Positions 73-10,055 of a DNA stretch of 10,055 nucleotides are shown piece by piece; the first letter of the stretch is position 1, and every line of letters starts with the position of its first letter. The notes beneath the pieces were generated by a model, which was given only the letters and a program-made list of their open reading frames with translations, ran no database searches and was not told the DNA's origin. This DNA comes from a virus. Its lineage: Duplodnaviria > Heunggongvirae > Uroviricota > Caudoviricetes. The stretch lies in IMG/VR virus record IMGVR_UViG_2706795442_000001, one strand, 5' to 3'. Made by a program: the position numbers and the translations under genes.

Positions 73-1056
73 TTATCTCCATCTTAATTCCATAGCTTTA
101 TGGTTTACTTTTTTGATTGCAGCTTCTATTGATTGTCTAACAGAAGATTCATCATTTCCTATTATATCAGCTATAGCAACATTTGTCAAGCCATTTCTAT
201 AAAATTTTAAACATTCTCTTTCTCTGTCTGTCATTTCAGTACGTTCTATAAGATTATCTAAATCATATAATATACATTGAAAATCATTTTGGAAATCCCC
301 ATTAAATTTAAATCTCAATAATCCGTCTACTCTATTAAAGTGTGGATTACTATAATCTAATGAATACCCCTTTAAATGATTATAATTTGCAAAATCAATT
401 ACATCTAAATTTGGCTGTGTCGATTCGCTAAAATATCTTAATGAATAGCCGTGAATTTTCATTAGACTATCTTTTGCTAATATCATATCTTTTTTAACTT
501 CGCCTTTGATTCTATCTACTTTAAACTTTTGACCTTCTTCTGATTTTCTTTTCAATACATTAAGATAAGTGTCATAATCTCTGAGAACTGAGCCTAGCCA
601 ATCCCCACGTTTTAAGTCTTTAGCTGTTATTTTTTGGTCTTTACTTTTTTTATAGTTACTCTGACCTGCCAAAAGAAAATCTATTACTTCTGGTTCTTGG
701 TCTTGATATAATTTTTCTTTACTAACTGCTTTTCTAAAAGCATCTTCATCATAATAAAACTTGTAATTCACGTCGTTATCTTCTCTTGTATCAGCAGAAT
801 TAAGTAAATATGTTGCATAATTCTCCAATACTTTACAAACATTATTATCCATAGAGAGATAATCATTTTGAGAAGCTACTGGATTATAGTAATCTGTAAA
901 ATATTCTTCAAAGAATGATGTCCCCTCTAATGTTTGATTAATACAATCTAATCTATCGTTATAATTAAGAAGACTTCTATCCATAACTTTATTTAATTTA
1001 ATAGCATTAGTTCCGTCTAATGTTGCTGTAAAATTTTGTTGTGTTGTAAAAGCCAC
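73..1056 (-). CDS. Phage protein with a C-terminal sigma70 region-4/LuxR-like helix-turn-helix; putative transcription regulator or sigma-like factor
   Basis: 327-aa ORF with GTG start and AGGAG upstream. C-terminus MTDRERECLKFYRNGLTNVAIADIIGNDESSVRQSIEAAIKKV fits the LTxRExE..L...G.T..EIA..lG.S...V pattern. The N-terminal 270 aa are not recognised. Confidence 0.7.
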   Translation of the reverse strand: MAFTTQQNFTATLDGTNAIKLNKVMDRSLLNYNDRLDCINQTLEGTSFFEEYFTDYYNPVASQNDYLSMDNNVCKVLENYATYLLNSADTREDNDVNYKFYYDEDAFRKAVSKEKLYQDQEPEVIDFLLAGQSNYKKSKDQKITAKDLKRGDWLGSVLRDYDTYLNVLKRKSEEGQKFKVDRIKGEVKKDMILAKDSLMKIHGYSLRYFSESTQPNLDVIDFANYNHLKGYSLDYSNPHFNRVDGLLRFKFNGDFQNDFQCILYDLDNLIERTEMTDRERECLKFYRNGLTNVAIADIIGNDESSVRQSIEAAIKKVNHKAMELRWR

Positions 1057-1237: not shown

Positions 1238-1254
1238 TGTTAAGAAAATGTTAA
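1238..1254 (+). promoter_or_regulatory. OmpR/PhoB-family direct repeat TGTTAA-N5-TGTTAA
   Basis: TGTTAAGAAAATGTTAA matches the WalR consensus TGTWAH-N5-TGTWAH and contains the SaeR consensus GTTAA-N6-GTTAA. On the minus strand it reads TTAACA-N5-TTAACA (PhoP-like). It is intergenic. Confidence 0.5.
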
Positions 1255-1259
1255 GATTG

Positions 1260-1772
1260 TCAGATATGTGTCCAAGTTTTTCTTTTTACTATATTCCAAA
1301 CCGTTGTAATAGAAATATTAAAATATATTGATAATTCTCTTAGAGTAAGTTCTCCTGTGTCATACATTTCTCTTAATTCTTTAACATCTTCATTTGTCAT
1401 CTTAGATTTTGATGTCGCTTCCCCTCTACTATAATTAAATTTTGAGAAATCAGTAAGACCTGTTTCTATAGAATGTTCAGTATTTTCTTTAGCTGTGCAC
1501 CATTCTAAATTATAAAATTTATTATTTGTTTTATTCCCGTCTTTATGGTTTACTTGAGGTTTATCATTAGGATTAGGGATAAATGCTTGAGCAACCAGCC
1601 TATGAACAAAAACTTTCTTTTTCATGTCATTATCATTAACTAATTCTATTTTTTCATACCCCTTACAAGAATAAAATCTTAAATCTTTTAGCCTTATAAC
1701 GTTTTTAACTCTCCCCTTATTTCTAACTAAATATTTAGAAAAACCTTCAACTATTTTCCATTTTTCTTCCAT
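1260..1772 (-). CDS. Free-standing NUMOD4-HNH homing endonuclease (I-HmuI-like) with a possible C-terminal HTH
   Basis: NUMOD4-like start MEEKWKIVEGFSKYLVRNKGRVKN; HNH core VHRLVAQAFIPNPNDKPQVNHKDGNKTNNKFYNLEWCT..EN..H; C-terminal HTH-like segment LRELSIYFNISITTVWNIVKRKTW. AAGGAG RBS. Confidence 0.92.
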   Translation of the reverse strand: MEEKWKIVEGFSKYLVRNKGRVKNVIRLKDLRFYSCKGYEKIELVNDNDMKKKVFVHRLVAQAFIPNPNDKPQVNHKDGNKTNNKFYNLEWCTAKENTEHSIETGLTDFSKFNYSRGEATSKSKMTNEDVKELREMYDTGELTLRELSIYFNISITTVWNIVKRKTWTHI

Positions 1773-2259: not shown

Positions 2260-2428
2260 ATTTCAATCAATTTCTAAGTTATTATGCATTTCCATAGTGT
2301 TTTTGTTATTATGATTTTACGAAAAGAATTATTATATTCAATCACTAAAACATATTCTCTAAAATCATATTTTCCAAATATTGTATATGCTGAAAAGTTT
2401 ATTTGTTTTTTAATTCATTTTCTATCAT
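2256..2428 (-). pseudogene. Possible decayed small gene (A-tract frameshift plus internal TAG)
   Basis: MIENEL from 2428, then a shift in an A6 tract to KKQINFSAYTIFGKYDFREYVLVIEYNNSFRKIIITKTLWKCIIT*KLIEI. It ends in a TGA that overlaps the ATG at 2259 (ATGA). Confidence 0.3.
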
Positions 2429-2964: not shown

Positions 2965-3218
2965 TTTTTTTCTTTAAAAATAAATATTTAACATATCTGC
3001 CAGTTTTTTCCAAAAATAAATTATCATGAAATTTATATATTCCCGCCGGGTTTTTTGATATTTTTTGTTATCATGAAAACTTTTTATTTTGCCTTAAAAA
3101 AGTTCCCCGGGGTTTTTAGTATGTCCCTTATCATAACTCTTTCTCATTTTTTACGAAAAAAAGTTGTCGAATTTTTTACGATTTGCCTACCGTCTAACGA
3201 CTGTCTTATAAAATAATT

Positions 3219-3310
3219 TTTTTATACAATAATAAATATATAATATAAAATTTTAATACAATATAATAAATATTTAATAAAATTTTTATACAATAATTTA
3301 TATATAACTT
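3219..3310. repeat. Three 32-bp-period AT-rich tandem units
   Basis: TTT(T/A)ATACAATA units with TACAAT at 3225, 3257 and 3289, in almost purely A/T sequence. Confidence 0.6.
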
Positions 3311-3472
3311 TTTATTTTTGATATATAACAAAATTATATAATCTATTAATTAAAAACTTTTTAGAAGTGTTCTGTTTTTTGTTCGTATTAAATTATCAAT
3401 GTTCTAATTTCTTTCTTTTAACTTGCCTATATCGTAACGCCGTTTTTTGATTTTGCGTTAAAAATAACCTAG

Positions 3473-3493
3473 TTTGTAACATTCTTGTAATAT
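3473..3493 (+). promoter_or_regulatory. WalR-type box, copy 1 of the 21-mer TTTGTAAYATTCTTGTAATAT
   Basis: TGTAAC (3475)-ATTCT-TGTAAT (3486) is an exact TGTWAH-N5-TGTWAH. Confidence 0.6.
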
Positions 3494-3550
3494 AAAACTA
3501 TTCAAACATGCGATATTAAAGCCTTTTATAGTAGATTGTAATTATTATTA

Positions 3551-3571
3551 TTTGTAATATTCTTGTAATAT
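3551..3571 (+). promoter_or_regulatory. WalR-type box, copy 2
   Basis: TGTAAT (3553)-ATTCT-TGTAAT (3564). Confidence 0.6.
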
Positions 3572-3730
3572 AGGCGTGTTTCTTCCATATAAAGACAAAA
3601 ATATTATTTCAAACTTGTATTTTTCCTTTTAATAGTAGAAACTATTTTAAAAAATAAATTTTAAAATTTTTTACGCTTACTCTCTCAAGGGATTTAGTCA
3701 TTTTTTAGTATGTAAATTTAAAATTAATAC

Positions 3731-3759
3731 TTGCAATTAGTTTTATAAGGGCGTATAGT
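3731..3759 (+). promoter_or_regulatory. sigmaA-type promoter
   Basis: TTGCAA, 17 nt, TATAGT, upstream of the ORF at 3809. Confidence 0.7.
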
Positions 3760-3808
3760 AAGAATTGTCAAAAGGGCAACAAACAAAAAAGAAAAAGGAT
3801 GATAAAAA

Positions 3809-4060
3809 ATGAAAATTACAAAAGAATACAATGAAGCATCAAGCACAGTAAACAATATGGATGTTTTTGATGTATACGTGAATGACTGGGGACTGCTACA
3901 GTATGGGTTTAAATATAATGAATTTACTGGGCTACATGATTTATACATTATGAACACAAAGAAAAAATTTACTGGTGTGCCACTTGAAAAAATGAATAAT
4001 ATTATTGAAAAAGAGTTAAATTATCAAATTAAACTATTTAAACAAGCGAAAAGAATTTAA
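3809..4060 (+). CDS. Hypothetical small early phage protein (83 aa)
   Basis: AAAGGATGATAAAAAATG RBS junction and its own promoter. Confidence 0.8.
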   Translation: MKITKEYNEASSTVNNMDVFDVYVNDWGLLQYGFKYNEFTGLHDLYIMNTKKKFTGVPLEKMNNIIEKELNYQIKLFKQAKRI

Positions 4061-4068
4061 AATAATTG

Positions 4069-4097
4069 TTGACTTTCAGAAATGAAAAGAGTAACAT
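4069..4097 (+). promoter_or_regulatory. sigmaA-type promoter
   Basis: TTGACT, 17 nt, TAACAT, followed by AGACAGTTA at 4101. Confidence 0.75.
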
Positions 4098-4136
4098 TAT
4101 AGACAGTTATAAATCACATAGAAAAGGATGATAAAA

Positions 4137-4682
4137 ATGAAAACAATTACACAAACATTTAATATTTATGAAATTACAGAATTAGAAGAAGAAGCAAAAC
4201 AAGAAGCAATTGAACAATCAAGAAATCAATTTCAAGAAATGGTGTCTGATTTTTACTATGATGAAATGCTATCAACTTTTAAAGAAGTAGCTAAAAACTT
4301 AAATATTGATATTGTTAGTTGGTCTATTGGATGCTTTAATCCTAACATATATATCAATCTTGATATTACCGATTATATGGAATTATCAAACACAGAAAAA
4401 AATAAACTAGTTGATAAAGTTAATCAATTTATTAAAAGTGATGATGATTGTCCGTTTACTGGTGTTTATACTGATTGTTATTTTAATGATTACTTTATTA
4501 AAAATAACATTAATAAAGTTACTTATAATAATCTTCATAAACACATAACAGAATCTTTTGACTGGGTATTATCTAAATATATCAATGATATTGAAAACAA
4601 TATATTAAATGATGATTTAATGATTGAGTATTCTCAAGATAATAATTTTATGTTTTTAGAAAATGGTAAAATTTATCAATGA
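4137..4682 (+). CDS. Conserved-looking acidic phage protein of unknown function (181 aa; start moved from 4128 to 4137)
   Basis: AAGGA RBS spacing favours ATG at 4137. The N-terminus (TFNIYEITELEEEAKQEAIE), central CPFTGVYTD and C-terminus (FMFLENGKIY) recall, from memory only, a widespread mobile-element family. No search was run. Confidence 0.85.
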   Translation: MKTITQTFNIYEITELEEEAKQEAIEQSRNQFQEMVSDFYYDEMLSTFKEVAKNLNIDIVSWSIGCFNPNIYINLDITDYMELSNTEKNKLVDKVNQFIKSDDDCPFTGVYTDCYFNDYFIKNNINKVTYNNLHKHITESFDWVLSKYINDIENNILNDDLMIEYSQDNNFMFLENGKIYQ

Positions 4683-4707
4683 AAATAACAAAGTGTAAAA
4701 TTTCCAC

Positions 4708-4735
4708 TTGAAATCACTTTTTAAAGTAGTACAAT
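4708..4735 (+). promoter_or_regulatory. sigmaA-type promoter
   Basis: TTGAAA, 16 nt, TACAAT, preceded directly by AACAAAGTGTAAAATTTCC. Confidence 0.65.
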
Positions 4736-4782
4736 AAATAATATAAGATAATCAAATAAACAAATTGAAAGAGGTTTTTAAA

Positions 4783-4984
4783 ATGAAAACAAAAAAAATA
4801 TACAATTAAACATAATAACACAGATGTTAGTAAATTATGGAATTTAGCAAAAAACGGCGTTTTTAGTTATCAGACAGTACGCAAGATATTCGACAATGAA
4901 AATGATGGATTCATTACATTTAATAGCAAATATTCATATGATAAATTCAAACAACATGAATTTACTACAAGCGCATATTATTAA
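4783..4984 (+). pseudogene. 66-aa gene frameshifted in an A8 tract (or phase-variable)
   Basis: Promoter, GAGGT RBS and ATG at 4783; stops after 8 codons as written. Removing one A from 4791-4798 gives MKTKKYTIKHNNTDVSKLWNLAKNGVFSYQTVRKIFDNENDGFITFNSKYSYDKFKQHEFTTSAYY, ending at TAA 4982-4984 just before the next promoter. Confidence 0.75.
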
Positions 4985-4992
4985 AATAATTC

Positions 4993-5020
4993 TTGATTTT
5001 GAAAATCAAAGTGATATAAT
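4993..5020 (+). promoter_or_regulatory. sigmaA-type promoter with a palindrome over -35
   Basis: TTGATT, 16 nt, TATAAT with extended TG. TTGATTTT-G-AAAATCAA (4993-5009) is a perfect inverted repeat. Confidence 0.7.
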
Positions 5021-5066
5021 AGATATTAAGAAATACAAAAAAATGAAATGAAAAGGATGATAAAAA

Positions 5067-5363
5067 ATGAACAACAAAAAATTTAATGAATTACAACAAT
5101 TAATTGAAGAAGTAAACGAAATTACAAACGGGGCATATGATAACATTATTAAAGAAGAAAAAGAAACTTTTTGGAATAGTTTGGAAATTAGGGACGAAAA
5201 ACCGGAACGTATAGCGAATATGATTCACTTTGGCAGTTATAATCCACTAGATGAATTTATTGGGTTTGATGGTTACGGAAATATCGAAAGTATGGACAAA
5301 CACACATACTATAATGAATTGAAAGACTATCAAACAGAATTATTAAAAGAAATTGAAGAATAA
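5067..5363 (+). CDS. Hypothetical acidic phage protein (98 aa) with an FG.YNP.D.F..FDGYGN motif
   Basis: AAAAGGATGATAAAAAATG junction; the motif resembles conserved small phage proteins (from memory). Confidence 0.85.
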   Translation: MNNKKFNELQQLIEEVNEITNGAYDNIIKEEKETFWNSLEIRDEKPERIANMIHFGSYNPLDEFIGFDGYGNIESMDKHTYYNELKDYQTELLKEIEE

Positions 5364-5379
5364 GAAAGGATGTTAAAAG

Positions 5380-5907
5380 ATGAACAAATCAAAAACATTA
5401 ATTTATATTGATAGCTTATTGCTATCTTATGAAATTAAACAAGAAAGTATAGGCGCTGATATTGATATAGTTGACGTGATAGGAACTACAGAAGTTAACA
5501 ACATTATATATTTAGCGTTAGAAGTAGAATATAACGACTATTGTTATTTAACTCATGTTGAGTTAGTCAACATGTGGGCTTATCCGAATGATGATGACAA
5601 GCAAGAAATCAAAGAAGAATTATTAAACAATATATTTAAAGATATTGCTTTTCAATCAAGTAGTATCAATGTTGGCGATGTAGTAAGATATACAGACGAT
5701 ATTTATATTAAGAATATAAAAAATGATTATTTCTTTTTATCTGATAATGAAACGCCTAAAATGGATGTAAATTATATAGTAAGTGATTTACATTATGACG
5801 GCATAGACGAACAGAACAATTTAATAGTATTATATCAATTAGAAAAAGATGACGAATATTTAGGCATTCTAACTAATGAATTTGAAATTGAGAAAGTGAG
5901 TGAATAA
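5380..5907 (+). CDS. Hypothetical acidic phage protein (175 aa)
   Basis: GAAAGGATG RBS; open frame; operonic spacing. Confidence 0.85.
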   Translation: MNKSKTLIYIDSLLLSYEIKQESIGADIDIVDVIGTTEVNNIIYLALEVEYNDYCYLTHVELVNMWAYPNDDDKQEIKEELLNNIFKDIAFQSSSINVGDVVRYTDDIYIKNIKNDYFFLSDNETPKMDVNYIVSDLHYDGIDEQNNLIVLYQLEKDDEYLGILTNEFEIEKVSE

Positions 5908-5909
5908 AA

Positions 5910-6272
5910 ATGAAAGAATTGATATTATCAAATATAACAAAATATGAAAATTTTAAAGAGTATTCAAAATATATGAATACAGATAAAGAAGAATTTAAAG
6001 AAAATGAAGCAAATGGGTTTATTGTAAATATTACGTGTGGAACATATAACGGCGCTACCGATGAATTTACGCCGTGGCGCATTACTGATGACAATATTAT
6101 TGATACTTTAGTGCAATCATTAAGTGATTTAGATTACTATAATATTATTGCTAATATGGTAGATGAAGATACTACCAATTGGAAAATTGAGAAATTTATT
6201 TATGAATTAGTTAGCATTGAAAAAATTTTTATAATAGAAGATACAAGAAATATTTATATTGATAGAAATTAA
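5910..6272 (+). CDS. Hypothetical phage protein (120 aa)
   Basis: GAAAGTGAGTG RBS embedded in the end of the previous gene; followed by a terminator. Confidence 0.85.
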   Translation: MKELILSNITKYENFKEYSKYMNTDKEEFKENEANGFIVNITCGTYNGATDEFTPWRITDDNIIDTLVQSLSDLDYYNIIANMVDEDTTNWKIEKFIYELVSIEKIFIIEDTRNIYIDRN

Positions 6273-6298
6273 AACGGGCTTTCATAGTCCGTTTTTTT
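6271..6298 (+). terminator. Rho-independent terminator
   Basis: ACGGGCT-TTCAT-AGTCCGT stem (one G-U pair), followed by a T-run and preceded by an A-run. Confidence 0.85.
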
Positions 6299-6447
6299 GT
6301 GTTTTTTAGGTCTAAAATAAAAGCGATTTCAAACCGTTGATATAATGGCAATCTGTCCATATAGCGACTTTATTAAGTTTTTAGGGGTATTGTAGCCTAA
6401 AAAACTAAAGTCCATAAATACCCCTTTAAAATAGATTTTAAGGCATG

Positions 6448-6476
6448 TTGACAATATTATAAACTTGTGTTATATA
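6448..6476 (+). promoter_or_regulatory. Strong sigmaA-type promoter (upstream of a tandem pair)
   Basis: TTGACA, 17 nt, TATATA with extended TG. Confidence 0.75.
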
Positions 6477-6501
6477 GTCAGTTTGTAATTTTACACATTA
6501 T

Positions 6502-6542
6502 TTTGTAACATTCTTGTAATATTCTTGTAGTTGATTTGTAAC
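6502..6542 (+). promoter_or_regulatory. WalR-type box, copy 3, extended to four 11-bp-phased hexamers
   Basis: TGTAAC 6504, TGTAAT 6515, TGTAGT 6526, TGTAAC 6537. The last two bracket the -35 TTGATT (6531-6536). Confidence 0.65.
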
Positions 6543-6559
6543 AGTCAAAGTGTTAAAGT
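6531..6559 (+). promoter_or_regulatory. sigmaA-type promoter (downstream of the tandem pair)
   Basis: TTGATT, 17 nt, TAAAGT with extended TG, then AGACAGTTA at 6562. Confidence 0.7.
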
Positions 6560-6600
6560 ATAGACAGTTAGAAAAAACAAGAAAAAAAGGATGATAAAAA

Positions 6601-6903
6601 ATGAAACTCAATAAAATGTTAAACAAAGCAAGAAACAACAAAACAAAAACAACACAAACAACATTAAAAAATAATGGCTTGAATATTAAAATTGAATACA
6701 GACCGAACGCCGAAGGGTTTAACAGTCAATATAAAAACAATACTTTTTATACCTATATTGATAATGAACTTGTTGGCGACTTATACCAACAAGAAAACAA
6801 TGTTCTAATGTGGTGTGATAATCACAATAAGTTAGTTTCTAATTTAACAGAAGCTAAACACATTGAGCATGTTTATAGTTTAGGATATATCGAAGAAGTG
6901 TAA
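6601..6903 (+). CDS. Hypothetical phage protein (100 aa)
   Basis: AAAAGGATGATAAAAAATG junction; tandem promoters upstream. Confidence 0.85.
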   Translation: MKLNKMLNKARNNKTKTTQTTLKNNGLNIKIEYRPNAEGFNSQYKNNTFYTYIDNELVGDLYQQENNVLMWCDNHNKLVSNLTEAKHIEHVYSLGYIEEV

Positions 6904-6931
6904 AATTTTACTTTTTATTTTTAAAAAGATG

Positions 6932-6959
6932 TTGAAATAAGTGCAAAATTTGATACAAT
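6932..6959 (+). promoter_or_regulatory. sigmaA-type promoter
   Basis: TTGAAA, 16 nt, TACAAT with extended TG, then AGACAGTTA at 6962. Confidence 0.7.
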
Positions 6960-6996
6960 AAAGACAGTTAAGAAAATAATAAAGGTGGTAACAAAA

Positions 6997-7083
6997 ATGA
7001 TTACATTATATATACTTGCTCATTGGCGTATGAGCAAAGAAAAGAAAAAACAAAGTGAGTTATATTTTGCTTATACTAGATAA
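6997..7083 (+). CDS. Small peptide (28 aa), MITLYILAHWRMSKEKKKQSELYFAYTR
   Basis: Below the ORF-track cutoff. First gene after the 6932 promoter with an AAGGTGG RBS; its stop abuts the next AAGGTGG. Confidence 0.6.
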   Translation: MITLYILAHWRMSKEKKKQSELYFAYTR

Positions 7084-7097
7084 GGTGGTTATAAAAA

Positions 7098-7340
7098 ATG
7101 AAATTAATAAACAGTAATAAAGAAATTGAAGCGATTAATAATAAAGAAAATGATTTTATTGTAAATGTTCGTTATAAACTCACAGATTATATTACAGATT
7201 GTATGCGTAACAATGAAGATGACCATATAGAAATTTTAAAGTGGTTGTCAACATTAGAAAAATGTTTAATATGTGAAACGGTTAAAGATTTAATTAACCT
7301 AATTAATATCTATGATTTACCTTTTAATATTATAAAGTAA
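7098..7340 (+). CDS. Hypothetical phage protein (80 aa)
   Basis: TAAGGTGG RBS; open frame. Confidence 0.8.
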   Translation: MKLINSNKEIEAINNKENDFIVNVRYKLTDYITDCMRNNEDDHIEILKWLSTLEKCLICETVKDLINLINIYDLPFNIIK

Positions 7341-7354
7341 GGTGGTTTTAAAAA

Positions 7355-7501
7355 ATGATTAAGTTTACACACAAAAACAAAAAATATAAAAGCACACAAA
7401 CAACAGACGCATTAATAACGTTGTTTGGTGGTACTGGATTAATTACATTGCTTGATTGGTTGGTATCAATTCAAGATAATATAAATATTTTTGTTAAATA
7501 A
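7355..7501 (+). CDS. Small putative membrane-associated protein (48 aa)
   Basis: Not in the track. TAAGGTGG RBS; MIKFTHKNKKYKSTQTTDALITLFGGTGLITLLDWLVSIQDNINIFVK has a basic N-terminus then a hydrophobic stretch. Confidence 0.7.
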   Translation: MIKFTHKNKKYKSTQTTDALITLFGGTGLITLLDWLVSIQDNINIFVK

Positions 7502-7540
7502 ACAAAGTGTAAAATTTCCTTAAAAAGTTTTAAAAAAGTA

Positions 7541-7569
7541 TTGAAATAATTTCCAATAGGCTTTAGAAT
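7541..7569 (+). promoter_or_regulatory. sigmaA-type promoter
   Basis: TTGAAA, 17 nt, TAGAAT; AACAAAGTGTAAAATTTCC at 7501-7519 upstream. Confidence 0.75.
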
Positions 7570-7613
7570 AATAAATGTAATAACAATAATAAAAACAAGA
7601 TAGGATGATGAAA

Positions 7614-7871
7614 ATGACTACAGAACTACAAGCAATTTACACGAATCAAAAAAGTTTTTACGGAAAAGCACAGGTTGAATATACGCCAGACAATCACAAA
7701 ATTTTATATAGCTATAATACGAAAGTTTGCGAACTAAACGCCGACAATCAGATAATAAAAATCGGCTATTATTCACAAACAACTAGCCGACACATTAATG
7801 ATTTTTTACAACAAAATGGACATAAGAAAATGAGTAAAAAAGAAATTGAAAAATTAGAAAGTGAGTGTTAA
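7614..7871 (+). CDS. Conserved-looking small phage protein (85 aa; start moved from 7605 to 7614) with SFYGKA...YSQTTSRH motifs
   Basis: AGGA RBS spacing favours ATG at 7614. The motifs recall a widespread phage family of unknown function (from memory). Confidence 0.85.
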   Translation: MTTELQAIYTNQKSFYGKAQVEYTPDNHKILYSYNTKVCELNADNQIIKIGYYSQTTSRHINDFLQQNGHKKMSKKEIEKLESEC

Positions 7872-7873
7872 AA

Positions 7874-8032
7874 ATGGAAAATGAAACATTAGAACAAATT
7901 AAAAATGACTATATTTTTCTAATATCAGAACATCCAAACGATTGGGGATTAAACGAAACGGCAACCGATGAAGAAATTAAAGAAATGGCGTTATCTTTAG
8001 CTATTGAAGAAAAAGAAAACAAAATAATATAA
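7874..8032 (+). CDS. Small acidic protein (52 aa)
   Basis: Not in the track. MENETLEQIKNDYIFLISEHPNDWGLNETATDEEIKEMALSLAIEEKENKII; GAAAGTGAGTG RBS; fills the gap between neighbours exactly. Confidence 0.75.
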   Translation: MENETLEQIKNDYIFLISEHPNDWGLNETATDEEIKEMALSLAIEEKENKII

Positions 8033-8048
8033 AGGGGGGGTGTAAATA

Positions 8049-8318
8049 ATGAATAATGAATTAAAAAGACATGTTAACAATGAATATAAAAAAATGATAA
8101 GTGATTGCTATAAACGTATAAAAAACGTTGGTGGCGTCATTACAAATGATTTTAAACAATGGGGCAACATAGATGAATGCGATGACATATATTACATTAT
8201 AAATCACTGTGCGTATAAGCTATATAAAAAAGGTGTTAAAGAAATAAGCATAACACCGAAATTTATTAAGTTGATTCTTAACAATGATAAAGCGAAATAT
8301 ATTAAAAAAGGATGTTAA
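8049..8318 (+). CDS. Hypothetical basic phage protein (89 aa)
   Basis: AAAGGGGGGG RBS; open frame. Confidence 0.8.
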   Translation: MNNELKRHVNNEYKKMISDCYKRIKNVGGVITNDFKQWGNIDECDDIYYIINHCAYKLYKKGVKEISITPKFIKLILNNDKAKYIKKGC

Positions 8319-8321
8319 AAT

Positions 8322-8621
8322 ATGGATAAAAATTTAGTAGATATTAATTTAGAATTAAGTAAAGGCTATGCAATCGACTTAAATATTTTAAGTTATAAAA
8401 TAACTATTGTGAAACATGATAATGAAACGCTAGGCGTTTTTTATAAACATGTTAAGATTGGGGAATTAAATTCCAATAACAGTATTTTTTATCGCTTCAC
8501 ATTTTACGGCGAAGATTTTGGGACACGTGATTTTATCTATGATAAAGTAACAAGCATTAAGCAAGTGCTAGGGATTATGTTGTATCATGATTTTGATATA
8601 ATAGATTATGATAATTATTAA
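8322..8621 (+). CDS. Hypothetical phage protein (99 aa)
   Basis: AAAGGATG RBS inside the end of the previous gene; followed by a terminator. Confidence 0.8.
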   Translation: MDKNLVDINLELSKGYAIDLNILSYKITIVKHDNETLGVFYKHVKIGELNSNNSIFYRFTFYGEDFGTRDFIYDKVTSIKQVLGIMLYHDFDIIDYDNY

Positions 8622-8640
8622 GAAGAAATAAATATATATT

Positions 8641-8671
8641 AAGTCTAGCTATTAAGTAGCTAGGCTTTTTT
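8641..8671 (+). terminator. Rho-independent terminator closing the small-gene array
   Basis: GTCTAGCTA-TTAAG-TAGCTAGGC stem followed by T6. Confidence 0.85.
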
Positions 8672-8818
8672 ATTATGCCTTATTTTAAGCGCTATTATAT
8701 TACGGGTATTATATACCTTTTGACTTATAACGTTTCTGTGTGGCTTTCTGTGTGGATTGTATAACGGGGGGTGGTTATATATTACATTGTTTACATGGTC
8801 GGTCTAATAATAAGGGTT

Positions 8819-8990
8819 TATATAATCGTCACTTATATTATAGGTTGCTATATATGAACGGTGCTATATAAAGGGTAGTATATTAAAGGCGTATATATAA
8901 CAGTGCTATATAATGGATATATAGGGCGTATATAAAGCGTTGTTATATAATAGGTGGTATATATCAAGGGTATATATAAAGGCGTATGTA
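8819..8990. repeat. Array of about 13 TATATA-core units spaced 11-16 bp with G-rich linkers
   Basis: Cores at 8819, 8834, 8849, 8865, 8879, 8892, 8907, 8918, 8929, 8944, 8958, 8971, 8985; approximate consensus GGCGTATATA(T)AAA. Confidence 0.65.
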
Positions 8991-9900
8991 TAAGCCTATG
9001 TGTAACATGTGTGTATATGTATCTATATATGTGTATGCTATATGTGTGTACATATGTATACAGTATATACAGTTGTGTATATATGTATATGTAATATATG
9101 TATGTGTTATGTATTGTGTGTATATGTGTAGTTGTATGTGTGTATGATAGTACAATGATAGTAGTATGATTATGTATAGTTATATATATAGTAATGTATA
9201 TGTATAGTTTTATGTGTATTCGTTGTGTGGTGTATCAGTATGTAGTATGTATCGTATGGACAGTGTGCACAGTGGTATATATATCATAGTGCATATATGT
9301 ATATGTACATATGTATGTAAGTATATATAGTTATGTATATAGATATGTATATGTATAGTTATGTTGATTGTGTTTGTATGTGTTGTGTGTATGTATGTTG
9401 TATTGATATATGTATGATTGTATATGATTAAGTATATAGTTATATGTATTGTGATTGTGTATGTATTAGATTGTTATACATGAATGTATGTAATGATATG
9501 TAATGATTATATATAACAATGATATATAACAATGATATGTAATGATTACATGTAATGATTAACACACATAGTATATCAATGTATTAGATTGTATTACATG
9601 ATTGTATATAGTATTGATATGTATTGATATGATACAAGCTATATCATACAACCTTATTACCTTATTACCTTATATATCCTTATAACGCATGTATGCGTAT
9701 GTGCGTGTTCTGTCTGTGTCTGTCTGTGTCTGTCTGTTGTGTGTTCGGTGTCATGTTCGTATATTGTATTATGTTTGATATATGTTGGATGATATAGTAT
9801 GATATTTATTTATATAATATATTTGTATTGCACAAGTGATATTATATAATTTTTTTATACAATATCAATCGCATATTATATAGTTTGTATACCTGGTATG
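8991..9900. repeat. Non-coding, strand-biased alternating TA/TG low-complexity tract with embedded short tandem repeats
   Basis: Plus strand is made mostly of TATG, TGTG and TATA, with C scarce. ATGTAATGAT at 9488, 9498, 9537, 9550; ATATAACAATGAT at 9511, 9524; CCTTATTA at 9652, 9660 (partial at 9668); TCTGTCTGTG at 9709, 9719 (variant at 9729). Confidence 0.9.
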
Positions 9901-10055
9901 TACAGACCTATAAAATATTTATAGAAATTTTACACCACGGGTGGTCTAATAAGAGGTCGGTATGGCTTCGGGTAGTCCTGGAAACGTTGGTGCTGTAGGG
10001 GTCCCCCTGTTTTTTATGTGAAAATTTGATTCTTTTTTAAAAGACAAGCGCCCCC

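What the first reader, a model, noticed from the sequence alone, without database searches (positions are those of the whole stretch)
3473..3571. Paired WalR-consensus boxes at the head of the early gene array
Seen: two copies of TTTGTAAYATTCTTGTAATAT 78 bp apart, each an exact TGTWAH-N5-TGTWAH, 160-260 bp upstream of the first array promoter. Established: this is the binding consensus of WalR (YycF/VicR), the cell-wall homeostasis regulator of Bacillota. A rough estimate at about 72% AT gives about 0.3 chance matches per 10 kb over both strands; four are present, all intergenic and on one strand, although three share a spacer and are not independent. Inference: the phage senses host wall or growth status, or titrates WalR as a decoy.
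Basis: partly seen in the sequence, partly recalled or inferred. Interest (0 to 1): 0.75.

Follow-up and report, generated by a model that had tools for sequence, protein, structure and literature searches.

The report
Host WalR-type boxes on staphylococcal phage
A lytic Staphylococcus epidermidis phage carries, at the head of its early genes, conserved DNA boxes that read like the docking site of WalR, the host's essential cell-wall regulator, so the phage may tie its first genes to the host's growth state; binding has not been tested.

Summary
The window comes from a Sextaecvirus, a roughly 92-97 kb lytic S. epidermidis siphophage. The 21-mer sits at 3473-3493 and 3551-3571, 78 bp apart, and a third exact copy lies at 6502-6522.

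Evidence that the boxes are functional:
- Against phages of S. hyicus and S. chromogenes, the boxes are 81-100% invariant while the flanks are 23-37% invariant.
- The two indels near them are about one helical turn each (11 and 10 bp), which points to a DNA-binding protein.

Evidence that the protein is WalR:
- The boxes fit the classic consensus, the S. aureus ChIP motif and the stricter TGTWAHA-N4-TGTWAHA form. The stricter form gives 3 hits against 0.06 expected, and these are the only exact hits in two whole phage genomes.
- Box 2 matches 16 of 17 bases of a predicted WalR site before the host autolysin gene ssaA2.
- No OmpR-type DNA-binding domain was found in five phage genomes.

Evidence that weakens the case:
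- There is no genome-wide enrichment.
- Five other staphylococcal lytic phages and S. equorum-type relatives show no such boxes.
- Box 2 is conserved beyond what WalR is known to need.
- There are no binding or transcript data.

I put host WalR at about 0.5, against a phage-encoded or other binder. The decoy idea is unsupported. This scan has earlier notes of WalR-type boxes on this window and on other phage DNA.

The parts
3473..3493 (+). Box 1: the 21-mer, with 17-mer core TGTAAC-ATTCT-TGTAAT at 3475-3491.
   Evidence: Exact match. It is invariant in all S. epidermidis-type relatives. PMBT8 has TGTAAT-ATTTC-TGTAAT and PT1-1 has TGTAAC-ATTCC-CGTAAT. In the four-phage alignment 17 of 21 columns are invariant, against 23-37% in the flanks.
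3551..3571 (+). Box 2: the 21-mer, with core TGTAAT-ATTCT-TGTAAT at 3553-3569. Its second hexamer, read as TTGTAA (3563-3568), could double as a -35 element.
   Evidence: Exact match. All 21 columns are invariant even against the S. hyicus and S. chromogenes phages. It matches 16 of 17 bases of the predicted S. epidermidis ssaA2 -252 site.
3575..3592 (+). Conserved block CGTGTTTCTTC(C/T)ATATAA, holding a -10-like hexamer (CATATA, 3586-3591) 17 bp after TTGTAA of box 2. It is a putative weak, activator-dependent promoter with a start near 3598.
   Evidence: Over 3575-3593, 17 of 19 columns are invariant. The block lies 22 bp after the second half-site here and 32 bp after it in PMBT8 and PT1-1, a 10-bp insertion. 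The layout '-10, then AAGACA' resembles the array promoters at 4069, 6531 and 6932. The promoter reading is an inference.
3731..3759 (+). First clear sigma-A-type array promoter, TTGCAA-17-TATAGT.
   Evidence: conserved in relatives.
3809..4060 (+). First early gene (83 aa, unknown function). It heads an operon that runs to the terminator at 6271-6295.
   Evidence: phrog_14210, unknown function. Homologues occur in S. equorum-type phages that have no boxes.
6448..6476 (+). Strong promoter TTGACA-17-TATATA with a TG extension. Its start, near 6481-6484, lies just upstream of the third box array.
   Evidence: Read directly from the sequence. The scanner did not list it because the second hexamer ends in A.
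6502..6542 (+). Third exact 21-mer (6502-6522), extended to four hexamers at an exact 11-bp period: 6504 TGTAAC, 6515 TGTAAT, 6526 TGTAGT, 6537 TGTAAC.
   Evidence: It is present in CF9, BE02, CF1, Ph11, Ph12, SEP9 and L099, and absent from BE22, PG-2021_88, PMBT8 and PT1-1.
6531..6559 (+). Second tandem promoter, TTGATT-17-TAAAGT with a TG extension, followed by ATAGACAGTTA. The exact box pair ends 10 bp upstream of its -35 element.
   Evidence: It is paralogous to the promoters at 4069 and 6932, which share '-10, then 3-4 nt, then GACAGTTA'.
6601..6903 (+). First gene of the second early operon (100 aa, unknown function). The operon ends at the terminator at 8641-8667.
3119..9987 (.). The 6.87-kb early region that holds all three boxes. 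It probably lies at a physical genome end or forms a long terminal repeat.
   Evidence: It is missing as one block from records of about 86-89 kb whose linear ends fall at its borders. ORF 7355-7501 has a counterpart annotated 'TreN-like' in relatives. This reading is an inference.
1238..1254 (+). Fourth match to the WalR pattern (TGTTAA-N5-TGTTAA). It is not part of the system.
   Evidence: It has no counterpart in the whole genomes of relatives and does not fit the extended consensus.

Best explanation
The boxes are operator sites for a head-to-tail dimer of an OmpR/PhoB-type response regulator, most likely the host's essential WalR (YycF). They mark the control regions of the phage's two early operons.

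At the first operon, WalR~P on box 2, helped by box 1 one or more helical turns upstream, would act on a weak promoter-like element at about 3563-3591. This element lies upstream of the constitutive promoter at 3731.

At the second operon, the box array sits downstream of the strong promoter at 6448 and just upstream of, and overlapping, the -35 of the promoter at 6531. Under the S. aureus positional rule, WalR~P would therefore damp the first promoter and favour the second.

The net effect is that early transcription is tuned to WalKR activity, which reports host growth and wall turnover.

Shown here: the sequence fit, the conservation, the helical phasing, and the position at both operon heads. 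Inferred: the binder's identity, the promoters and transcription starts, and the direction of regulation.
For: 1. Exact fit to TGTWAH-N5-TGTWAH at all three sites, and by inspection to the S. aureus ChIP-derived motif TGTHH-N6-WGTNDD.
2. Exact fit to the stricter high-affinity form TGTWAHA-N4-TGTWAHA from S. mutans VicR footprinting. The window has 3 hits against 0.06 expected. In the whole CF9 and SEP9 genomes these are the only exact hits.
3. The host protein fits. The S. epidermidis YycF helix-turn-helix is 100% identical to that of S. aureus. Only 28 exact-consensus sites were found within 400 bp upstream of start codons in the S. epidermidis RP62A genome. Among them, read on the TGT strand, are ssaA2 -252 (TGTTAT-ATTCT-TGTAAT; 16 of 17 bases and the same spacer as box 2), SERP_RS11965 (15 of 17 to box 1) and sbp (15 of 17). 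Both host ssaA genes carry two sites 106-129 bp apart, 140-270 bp before the start codon. The phage pair is 78 bp apart, 256 and 334 bp before its start codon.
4. Phylogenetic footprint: the boxes are 81-100% invariant and the flanks 23-37% invariant across phages of three host species.
5. The box 1 to box 2 distance is 78 bp against 67 bp (a difference of 11). The distance from box 2 to the conserved -10-like block is 22 bp against 32 bp (a difference of 10). Helical phase is therefore kept.
6. The changes seen in box 1 fall at half-site position 6 and spacer positions 4-5, with A7 kept. The one half-site change, CGTAAT, equals the second half-site of the strongly footprinted S. mutans gbpB site.
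7. No Trans_reg_C domain was found in five Sextaecvirus genomes, while 12 of 14 control genomes gave hits.
8. The half-sites end in T or C, as in the autolysin-gene sites. They do not end in A, as PhoP-type sites do at pstS, phnD and pitA.
9. The boxes sit at the heads of both terminator-delimited early operons and not at the internal promoters.
Against: - There are no binding, ChIP or transcript data. Every promoter and transcription start here is a prediction.
- The match to WalR was recognised after the fact. The three copies are one 21-mer family, so they count as about one independent event plus its conservation.
- Box 2 is invariant in its spacer and flanking bases as well (21 of 21), which is more than the WalR consensus requires.
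- The pattern is not enriched genome-wide. It is at background in phages K, SEP1, Twort, Andhra and P68.
- S. equorum-type relatives have no boxes within 3 kb of the homologous gene. Ph11 and Ph12 lack the pair, and BE22 lacks the third site. The boxes are therefore dispensable.
- The shared ATTCT spacer with ssaA2 has roughly a 0.07 chance of arising among 28 host sites (my estimate from base composition).
- The geometry relative to the -10-like block differs by one turn between lineages, so the sign of regulation is unclear.
Confidence: 0.5

Rival explanations
1. The 21-mer is the operator of a phage-encoded DNA-binding protein, or of an unidentified host one, that reads the whole sequence including the ATTCT spacer. 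An example would be an early-transcription shut-off or autoregulatory factor. On this reading the likeness to WalR boxes is coincidental.
For: Box 2 is invariant over all 21 positions across distant phages, and the third copy repeats the same 11-mer unit, TGTAAYATTCT. Phage-encoded regulators of early promoters are common (general knowledge). The position downstream of the strong promoter at 6448 suits a repressor. Sextaecviruses encode small proteins labelled transcriptional regulators, such as a DUF1381 / phrog_278 protein, as well as a sigma factor.
Against: No recognisable OmpR-type domain was found in five genomes. None of the ten array proteins tested matched any DNA-binding family. The 83-aa gene downstream also occurs in phages without boxes. 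In box 1 the spacer does vary (ATTTC, ATTCC) while the half-sites and A7 hold. A chance fit to a half-site as specific as TGTAAY plus A7, and 16 of 17 identity to a host autolysin-gene site, is unlikely. Phage proteins are absent when this DNA first enters the cell.
Confidence: 0.27
2. The boxes are structural DNA signals rather than regulator sites. They could be reiterated -35-like TTGTAA hexamers that recruit or park RNA polymerase. They could also be iteron-like repeats for replication, packaging or end functions near a genome terminus.
For: TTGTAA serves as a plausible -35 element in relatives (TTGTAA-16-TATAAT in PMBT8 and PT1-1) and lies 17 bp before a -10-like hexamer here. The pair lies about 355-450 bp inside the border of a region that behaves like a genome end. 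It sits next to the GC minimum (17.7%) and to three 32-bp AT-rich tandem repeats at 3207-3323.
Against: Box 1 has no -10 partner, and its flanks are not conserved. The third copy lies 3 kb away, between two promoters. No DnaA boxes lie in the region. Ph11 and Ph12 lack the pair altogether, which argues against an essential origin or packaging role. An exact 11-bp phase and one-turn indels are typical of a dimeric regulator.
Confidence: 0.12
3. Another host OmpR-family regulator binds the boxes, for instance PhoP, which recognises 11-bp-phased hexamers and often four in a row. The phage would then sense phosphate or some other signal.
For: The third site has four phased hexamers spanning about -62 to -24 of the promoter at 6531. 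This recalls Bacillus PhoP core sites (my own knowledge, not checked here). The WalR and PhoP consensus sequences overlap, and exact WalR-pattern hits precede pstS, phnD and pitA in S. epidermidis. Cyanophages carry host Pho boxes (PMC10976474).
Against: All exact phage half-sites end in T or C (TGTAAT, TGTAAC), whereas the Pho-regulon sites read TGTAAA or TGTTAA. The best host look-alikes are the ssaA2 and sbp sites, not Pho genes.
Confidence: 0.05
4. The repeats act in RNA, as protein-binding UUGUAAY repeats or as a structured leader, rather than in DNA.
For: The third array lies inside the predicted 5' leader of the transcript from the promoter at 6448.
Against: The leaders fold no better than shuffled sequence: z = -0.92 for 6484-6603, -0.19 for 3460-3600 and -0.59 for 3598-3712. 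Rfam gave no relevant match. No promoter is evident upstream of box 1. Indels of one helical turn point to geometry on double-stranded DNA.
Confidence: 0.03

Closest known systems
WalR (YycF/VicR) boxes of the host cell-wall regulon, such as the S. epidermidis ssaA1, ssaA2, sceD and LysM genes, the S. aureus ssaA, isaA and sle1 genes, and S. mutans gcrR and gbpB
   Same: Both have two direct TGTWAH hexamers with a 5-bp spacer and A at position 7. Both prefer the TGTAAT half-site. Paired sites lie 100-300 bp before the start codon. Box 2 matches the predicted ssaA2 site at 16 of 17 bases.
   Different: These boxes are on a lytic phage genome, before genes of unknown function. Three copies share one 21-mer. 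One site is extended to four phased hexamers between tandem promoters. Binding has not been shown.
Spo0A boxes at the early promoters and origins of Bacillus phages phi29 and Nf (PMC2731898)
   Same: A lytic phage carries binding sites for a host response regulator at its early control regions, so its lytic programme follows a host physiological state (abstract only).
   Different: The regulator belongs to a different family and has a different box. That system responds to sporulation, whereas this one would respond to growth and wall turnover. It is experimentally proven; this one is not.
Pho boxes (PhoB sites) before cyanophage pstS and phoA genes (PMC10976474)
   Same: Direct-repeat boxes of a host OmpR/PhoB-family regulator on a phage genome place phage genes under a host two-component system (abstract only).
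   Different: Those boxes precede host-derived metabolic genes and answer to phosphate. Here they head host-takeover-type early operons and match WalR rather than PhoB or PhoP.
Long-terminal-repeat early modules of Kayvirus, SPO1 and T5
   Same: Both are blocks of small genes of unknown function, each with host-type promoters, at a genome end. A relative's counterpart of one ORF is annotated TreN-like.
   Different: Whether the 6.87-kb block is actually repeated at both ends has not been shown, and no regulator boxes of this kind are known to me in those modules.

Membership tests
WalR/YycF/VicR binding site | Two direct-repeat hexamers TGT(A/T)A(A/T/C) separated by 5 bp. | tested here: met
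   Met at 3475-3491, 3553-3569 and 6504-6520. Both PMBT8 boxes and box 2 of PT1-1 also fit. Box 1 of PT1-1 has CGTAAT in its second half-site.
WalR/YycF/VicR binding site | S. aureus ChIP-derived 17-bp motif TGTHH-N6-WGTNDD. | tested here: met
   By inspection against the motif quoted in PMC10746227, both TGTAAC-ATTCT-TGTAAT and TGTAAT-ATTCT-TGTAAT fit.
WalR/YycF/VicR binding site | Adenine at the 7th position after each half-site (high-affinity form TGTWAHA-N4-TGTWAHA, S. mutans VicR). | tested here: met
   All three sites fit, with 3 hits against 0.06 expected. They are the only exact hits in the whole CF9 and SEP9 genomes. A7 is kept in the diverged box 1 of PMBT8 and PT1-1.
WalR/YycF/VicR binding site | The site lies at a promoter: upstream of -35 for activation, or within or downstream of the promoter for repression. 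| tested here: inconclusive
   The third site lies downstream of the promoter at 6448 and ends 10 bp upstream of the -35 of the promoter at 6531. Box 2 abuts a conserved -10-like block. All promoters are predictions and no transcription starts have been mapped.
WalR/YycF/VicR binding site | Bound by WalR~P in vitro or in vivo, and expression responds to WalKR activity. | not testable with these tools
   No protein-DNA assay is available here.
WalR/YycF/VicR binding site | The downstream genes belong to cell-wall metabolism (typical of the regulon, though not strictly required). | tested here: not met
   The downstream genes are small phage proteins with no known family.
Bacillus-type PhoP core binding site | Repeated TT(A/T/C)ACA hexamers, that is TGT(A/T/G)AA on the other strand, at an 11-bp period. 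| tested here: not met
   The period is met, with four hexamers at 6504-6542. The exact half-sites, however, end in T or C and not in A. The consensus is recalled from my own knowledge. The S. epidermidis Pho-gene sites read TGTAAA or TGTTAA.
Operator of a phage-encoded OmpR/PhoB-type regulator | The phage encodes a Trans_reg_C winged-helix domain. | tested here: not met
   PF00486 was not found in five Sextaecvirus genomes at E <= 1, while 12 of 14 control genomes gave hits. The protein annotated 'response regulator' in SEP9 (window 73-1056) is a sigma factor (phrog_5767, E = 2e-101, with a GerE / sigma region 4 helix-turn-helix).

The most novel reading that the evidence does not exclude
A strictly lytic staphylococcal phage uses copies of the host's own autolysin-gene WalR operator, near-identical to the ssaA2 site, on the first DNA to enter the cell. 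Its two host-takeover operons would then be licensed or re-routed by the essential WalKR growth and wall sensor. This would be a built-in check of whether the host is growing, and could explain poor phage development in stationary or biofilm cells.
Probability: 0.4. Interest if true: 0.75.

Novelty: new member of a known kind. Interest (0 to 1): 0.55.

Why it matters
Phage control regions that carry binding sites for host response regulators are known for Spo0A (phi29 and Nf) and PhoB (cyanophages). I found no report of this for WalR, the only essential two-component regulator of staphylococci.

If WalR binds, early gene expression in Sextaecviruses would depend on host wall turnover and growth. 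These phages are being collected for therapy of S. epidermidis biofilm and implant infections. Such dependence bears on how well the phage works against slow-growing biofilm cells and against walKR mutants, which arise under glycopeptide pressure.

The boxes would also give a compact natural reporter of WalR activity. The claim can be tested directly with standard assays.

Tried and rejected
- **Host genome.** No genome is held for this window. A phage handle cannot serve as a search centre. I used the published S. epidermidis site list instead.
- **17-mer in IMG/VR.** The scan returned 78 loci, of which only L037 is a relative. The others are single hits in unrelated contigs and look like chance.
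- **Other staphylococcal lytic phages** (K, phiIBB-SEP1, Twort, Andhra, P68). The WalR pattern is at background in all five.
- **Expression data.** The run search listed no infection RNA-seq run. The runs that hold the stretch are of unconfirmed type and may be DNA, and the two recorded as RNA are environmental metatranscriptomes holding only a small share of it.
- **RNA readings.** No structure stands out from shuffled sequence, and there is no relevant Rfam match and no tRNA.
- **DnaA boxes.** None lie in the early region.
- **Array proteins as binders.** The ten proteins tested have no DNA-binding family. Homologues of the 83-aa gene exist in phages without boxes. The 100-aa protein has almost no relatives, so I did not fold it.
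- **Literature.** Searches on SEP9 and Sextaecvirus turned up no paper whose title or abstract deals with these boxes or with phage promoters. The three papers I opened mention neither the boxes nor Sextaecvirus termini.
- **Decoy or titration.** I found nothing in its favour.

Full report
**What the window is**

The window matches Staphylococcus epidermidis siphophages of the genus Sextaecvirus (SEP9/6ec type, about 92-97 kb). The best match is CF9, at 94.9% identity over window 3000-7000.

Leftward genes occupy positions 1-2898. They include a phage sigma factor at 73-1056 (phrog_5767, E = 2e-101), which SEP9 annotates as a 'response regulator', and an HNH endonuclease.

From 3809 onward runs a rightward array of small genes of unknown function. 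The array forms two units, closed by terminators at 6271-6295 and 8641-8667. Host-type promoters lie at 3731, 4069, 4708, 4993, 6448, 6531, 6932 and 7541.

**The observation**

The 21-mer lies exactly at 3473-3493 and 3551-3571, 78 bp apart, and a third copy lies at 6502-6522; 0.01 copies are expected. TGTWAH-N5-TGTWAH gives four hits on the + strand against 0.47 expected.

The excess is due to this one family:
- Whole relatives carry 3-5 hits, against 2-6 for the reversed control.
- The fourth hit, at 1238, is not conserved.

At the third site the unit TGTAAYATTCT continues into four hexamers at an exact 11-bp period, at 6504, 6515, 6526 and 6537.

**Are the boxes functional?**

The 17-mer is invariant in every S. 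epidermidis-type relative that has the region, including one IMG/VR contig and one ENA contig. These phages are too similar to one another to be informative.

The useful comparison is with PMBT8 (host S. hyicus) and PT1-1 (host S. chromogenes), which keep only the pair. In a four-phage alignment:

| Region | Invariant columns |
|---|---|
| Flanks | 23-37% |
| Box 1 | 17 of 21 |
| Box 2 | 21 of 21 |
| Downstream block CGTGTTTCTTC(C/T)ATATAA | 17 of 19 |

The box 1 to box 2 distance is 78 bp in one lineage and 67 bp in the other. The distance from box 2 to the block is 22 bp against 32 bp. Both indels are therefore one helical turn. This argues for proteins aligned on one face of double-stranded DNA.

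RNA readings found no support. The leaders fold no better than shuffled sequence, and Rfam has no relevant match.

**Who binds?**

The boxes meet each sequence criterion for WalR that I could check:
- They fit the classic consensus.
- They fit the S. aureus ChIP motif TGTHH-N6-WGTNDD.
- They fit the stricter TGTWAHA-N4-TGTWAHA form defined by VicR footprinting and mutagenesis. The window has 3 hits against 0.06 expected, and in the whole CF9 and SEP9 genomes these are the only exact hits.

In the diverged box 1, the changes fall at half-site position 6 and at spacer positions 4-5, and A7 is kept. PT1-1's CGTAAT equals the second half-site of the strongly footprinted gbpB site.

Published work on the host adds further support. 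The S. epidermidis YycF helix-turn-helix is identical to that of S. aureus. Only 28 exact-consensus sites were found within 400 bp upstream of start codons in the S. epidermidis RP62A genome. Read on the TGT strand, they include:
- ssaA2 -252, TGTTAT-ATTCT-TGTAAT, which matches box 2 at 16 of 17 bases and has the same spacer;
- SERP_RS11965 and sbp, each matching at 15 of 17.

Both ssaA genes carry two sites 106-129 bp apart, far upstream of the start codon, much like the phage pair. By my rough estimate, the chance that one of 28 host sites shares the ATTCT spacer is about 0.07. This is suggestive, not decisive.

The Pho-regulon sites in the same list end in A (TGTAAA, TGTTAA), whereas the phage half-sites end in T or C. 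This argues against PhoP.

Five Sextaecvirus genomes hold no Trans_reg_C domain, and none of the ten array proteins tested matched any DNA-binding family.

**How it would work**

In S. aureus, a WalR site upstream of the -35 element activates, and a site within or downstream of the promoter represses.

- *Second operon.* The exact pair lies about 20-37 bp downstream of the start of the strong promoter at 6448 and ends 10 bp upstream of the -35 of the promoter at 6531. WalR~P should therefore damp the first promoter and favour the second.
- *First operon.* Box 2's TTGTAA lies 17 bp before a weak -10-like hexamer inside the conserved block. In the S. hyicus and S. chromogenes phages the box sits one turn further upstream, which is the usual geometry for WalR activation. 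This looks like a weak, activator-dependent promoter upstream of the constitutive one at 3731.

None of these transcription starts has been mapped.

**What weakens the reading**

- The match was found after the fact, and it rests on one repeated element.
- Box 2 is conserved in its spacer and flanks too, beyond what WalR is known to need. It may overlap a promoter signal, or the binder may read the whole 21-mer.
- Other staphylococcal lytic phages show no excess of the pattern.
- S. equorum-type relatives, found through the 83-aa gene, have quite different non-coding DNA without boxes.
- Ph11 and Ph12 lack the pair, and BE22 lacks the third site.
- Nothing supports the decoy idea.

I put host WalR at about 0.5, a phage-encoded or unknown binder at about 0.27, a structural or end-related DNA signal at about 0.12, and the remaining readings lower.

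**Context noticed**

Window 3119-9987 is missing as one block from records of about 86-89 kb produced by two laboratories, and the linear ends of those records fall at its borders. The genomes from one of the two laboratories (the S-CoN phages) were reordered with PhageTerm. A relative's counterpart of ORF 7355-7501 is annotated TreN-like. The early region therefore probably lies at a physical end of the genome, perhaps as a long terminal repeat. That would put the pair about 355-450 bp inside the first DNA to enter the cell, at a time when only host proteins are present.

**Novelty**

Host response-regulator boxes on phage genomes are known for Spo0A in phi29 and Nf and for PhoB in cyanophages. 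I found no report for WalR.

Earlier notes of this scan read 6448-6570 of this same window, and promoters of other phages, as WalR-type boxes. I used those notes only as leads. Two of them pointed me to the A7 refinement and its source paper, which I then checked myself.

Noticed in passing
window 3119-9987: The whole 6.87-kb early region is absent as one block from Sextaecvirus records of about 86-89 kb. These include S-CoN_Ph2, Ph3, Ph8, Ph10 and Ph16, and PG-2021_46. The linear ends of those records fall at its two borders (window about 3061-3124 and 9849-9992). The region probably lies at a physical genome end or forms a long terminal repeat that was dropped from those assemblies.
   Followed up: partly
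window 8850-9650: This zone has no annotated genes and is made of degenerate TG/TA-rich direct repeats (families of 21-82 nt) with strong positive GC skew (0.58-0.64). It lies after the last early terminator. It is conserved in relatives and is reminiscent of repeat zones at the inner end of terminal early regions. It also produced spurious miRNA matches in Rfam.
   Followed up: no
window 3207-3323: Three tandem 32-bp AT-rich repeats, each holding TTTTTATACAAT, lie in the lowest-GC stretch of the window (17.7%). They sit between the left border hairpins and the boxes. A related copy lies at 9840-9892, near the right border.
   Followed up: no
window 4098-4108, 6560-6570, 6960-6972: Three array promoters share the same start-region sequence, '-10, then 3-4 nt, then GACAGTTA'. 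At 6962 it reads ACAGTTAAG, which resembles an AgrA (LytTR) half-site as I recall it. It occurs as single copies only, so it is probably just a conserved initial transcribed sequence.
   Followed up: no
window 73-1056 (- strand): This 327-aa protein is annotated 'response regulator' in SEP9 and 'transcriptional regulator' in CF9. It is in fact a phage sigma factor (phrog_5767, with a GerE / sigma-70 region 4 helix-turn-helix) and is preceded by a perfect TTGACA-18-TATAAT promoter at 1145-1116.
   Followed up: partly
window 1260-1772 (- strand): An HNH/NUMOD4 homing-type endonuclease is inserted between the sigma-factor gene and the next leftward gene. Relatives have no gene there, or carry HNH genes at other nearby positions, so this is a mobile insertion.
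   Followed up: no
CF9 record 2347-2364 (- strand), and the same site in every Sextaecvirus genome searched: A WalR-pattern match, TGTTAA-ATCA(T/G)-TGTTAA, is conserved in all nine genomes. It lies far from the early region, and I did not check what is annotated there.
   Followed up: no
L012 5150-5290 and L013 4300-4450: The S. hyicus and S. chromogenes phages have a promoter, TTGTAA-16-TATAAT, after the box pair. It is followed by a conserved small ORF (28 aa in PMBT8) that is not annotated in PMBT8.
   Followed up: no
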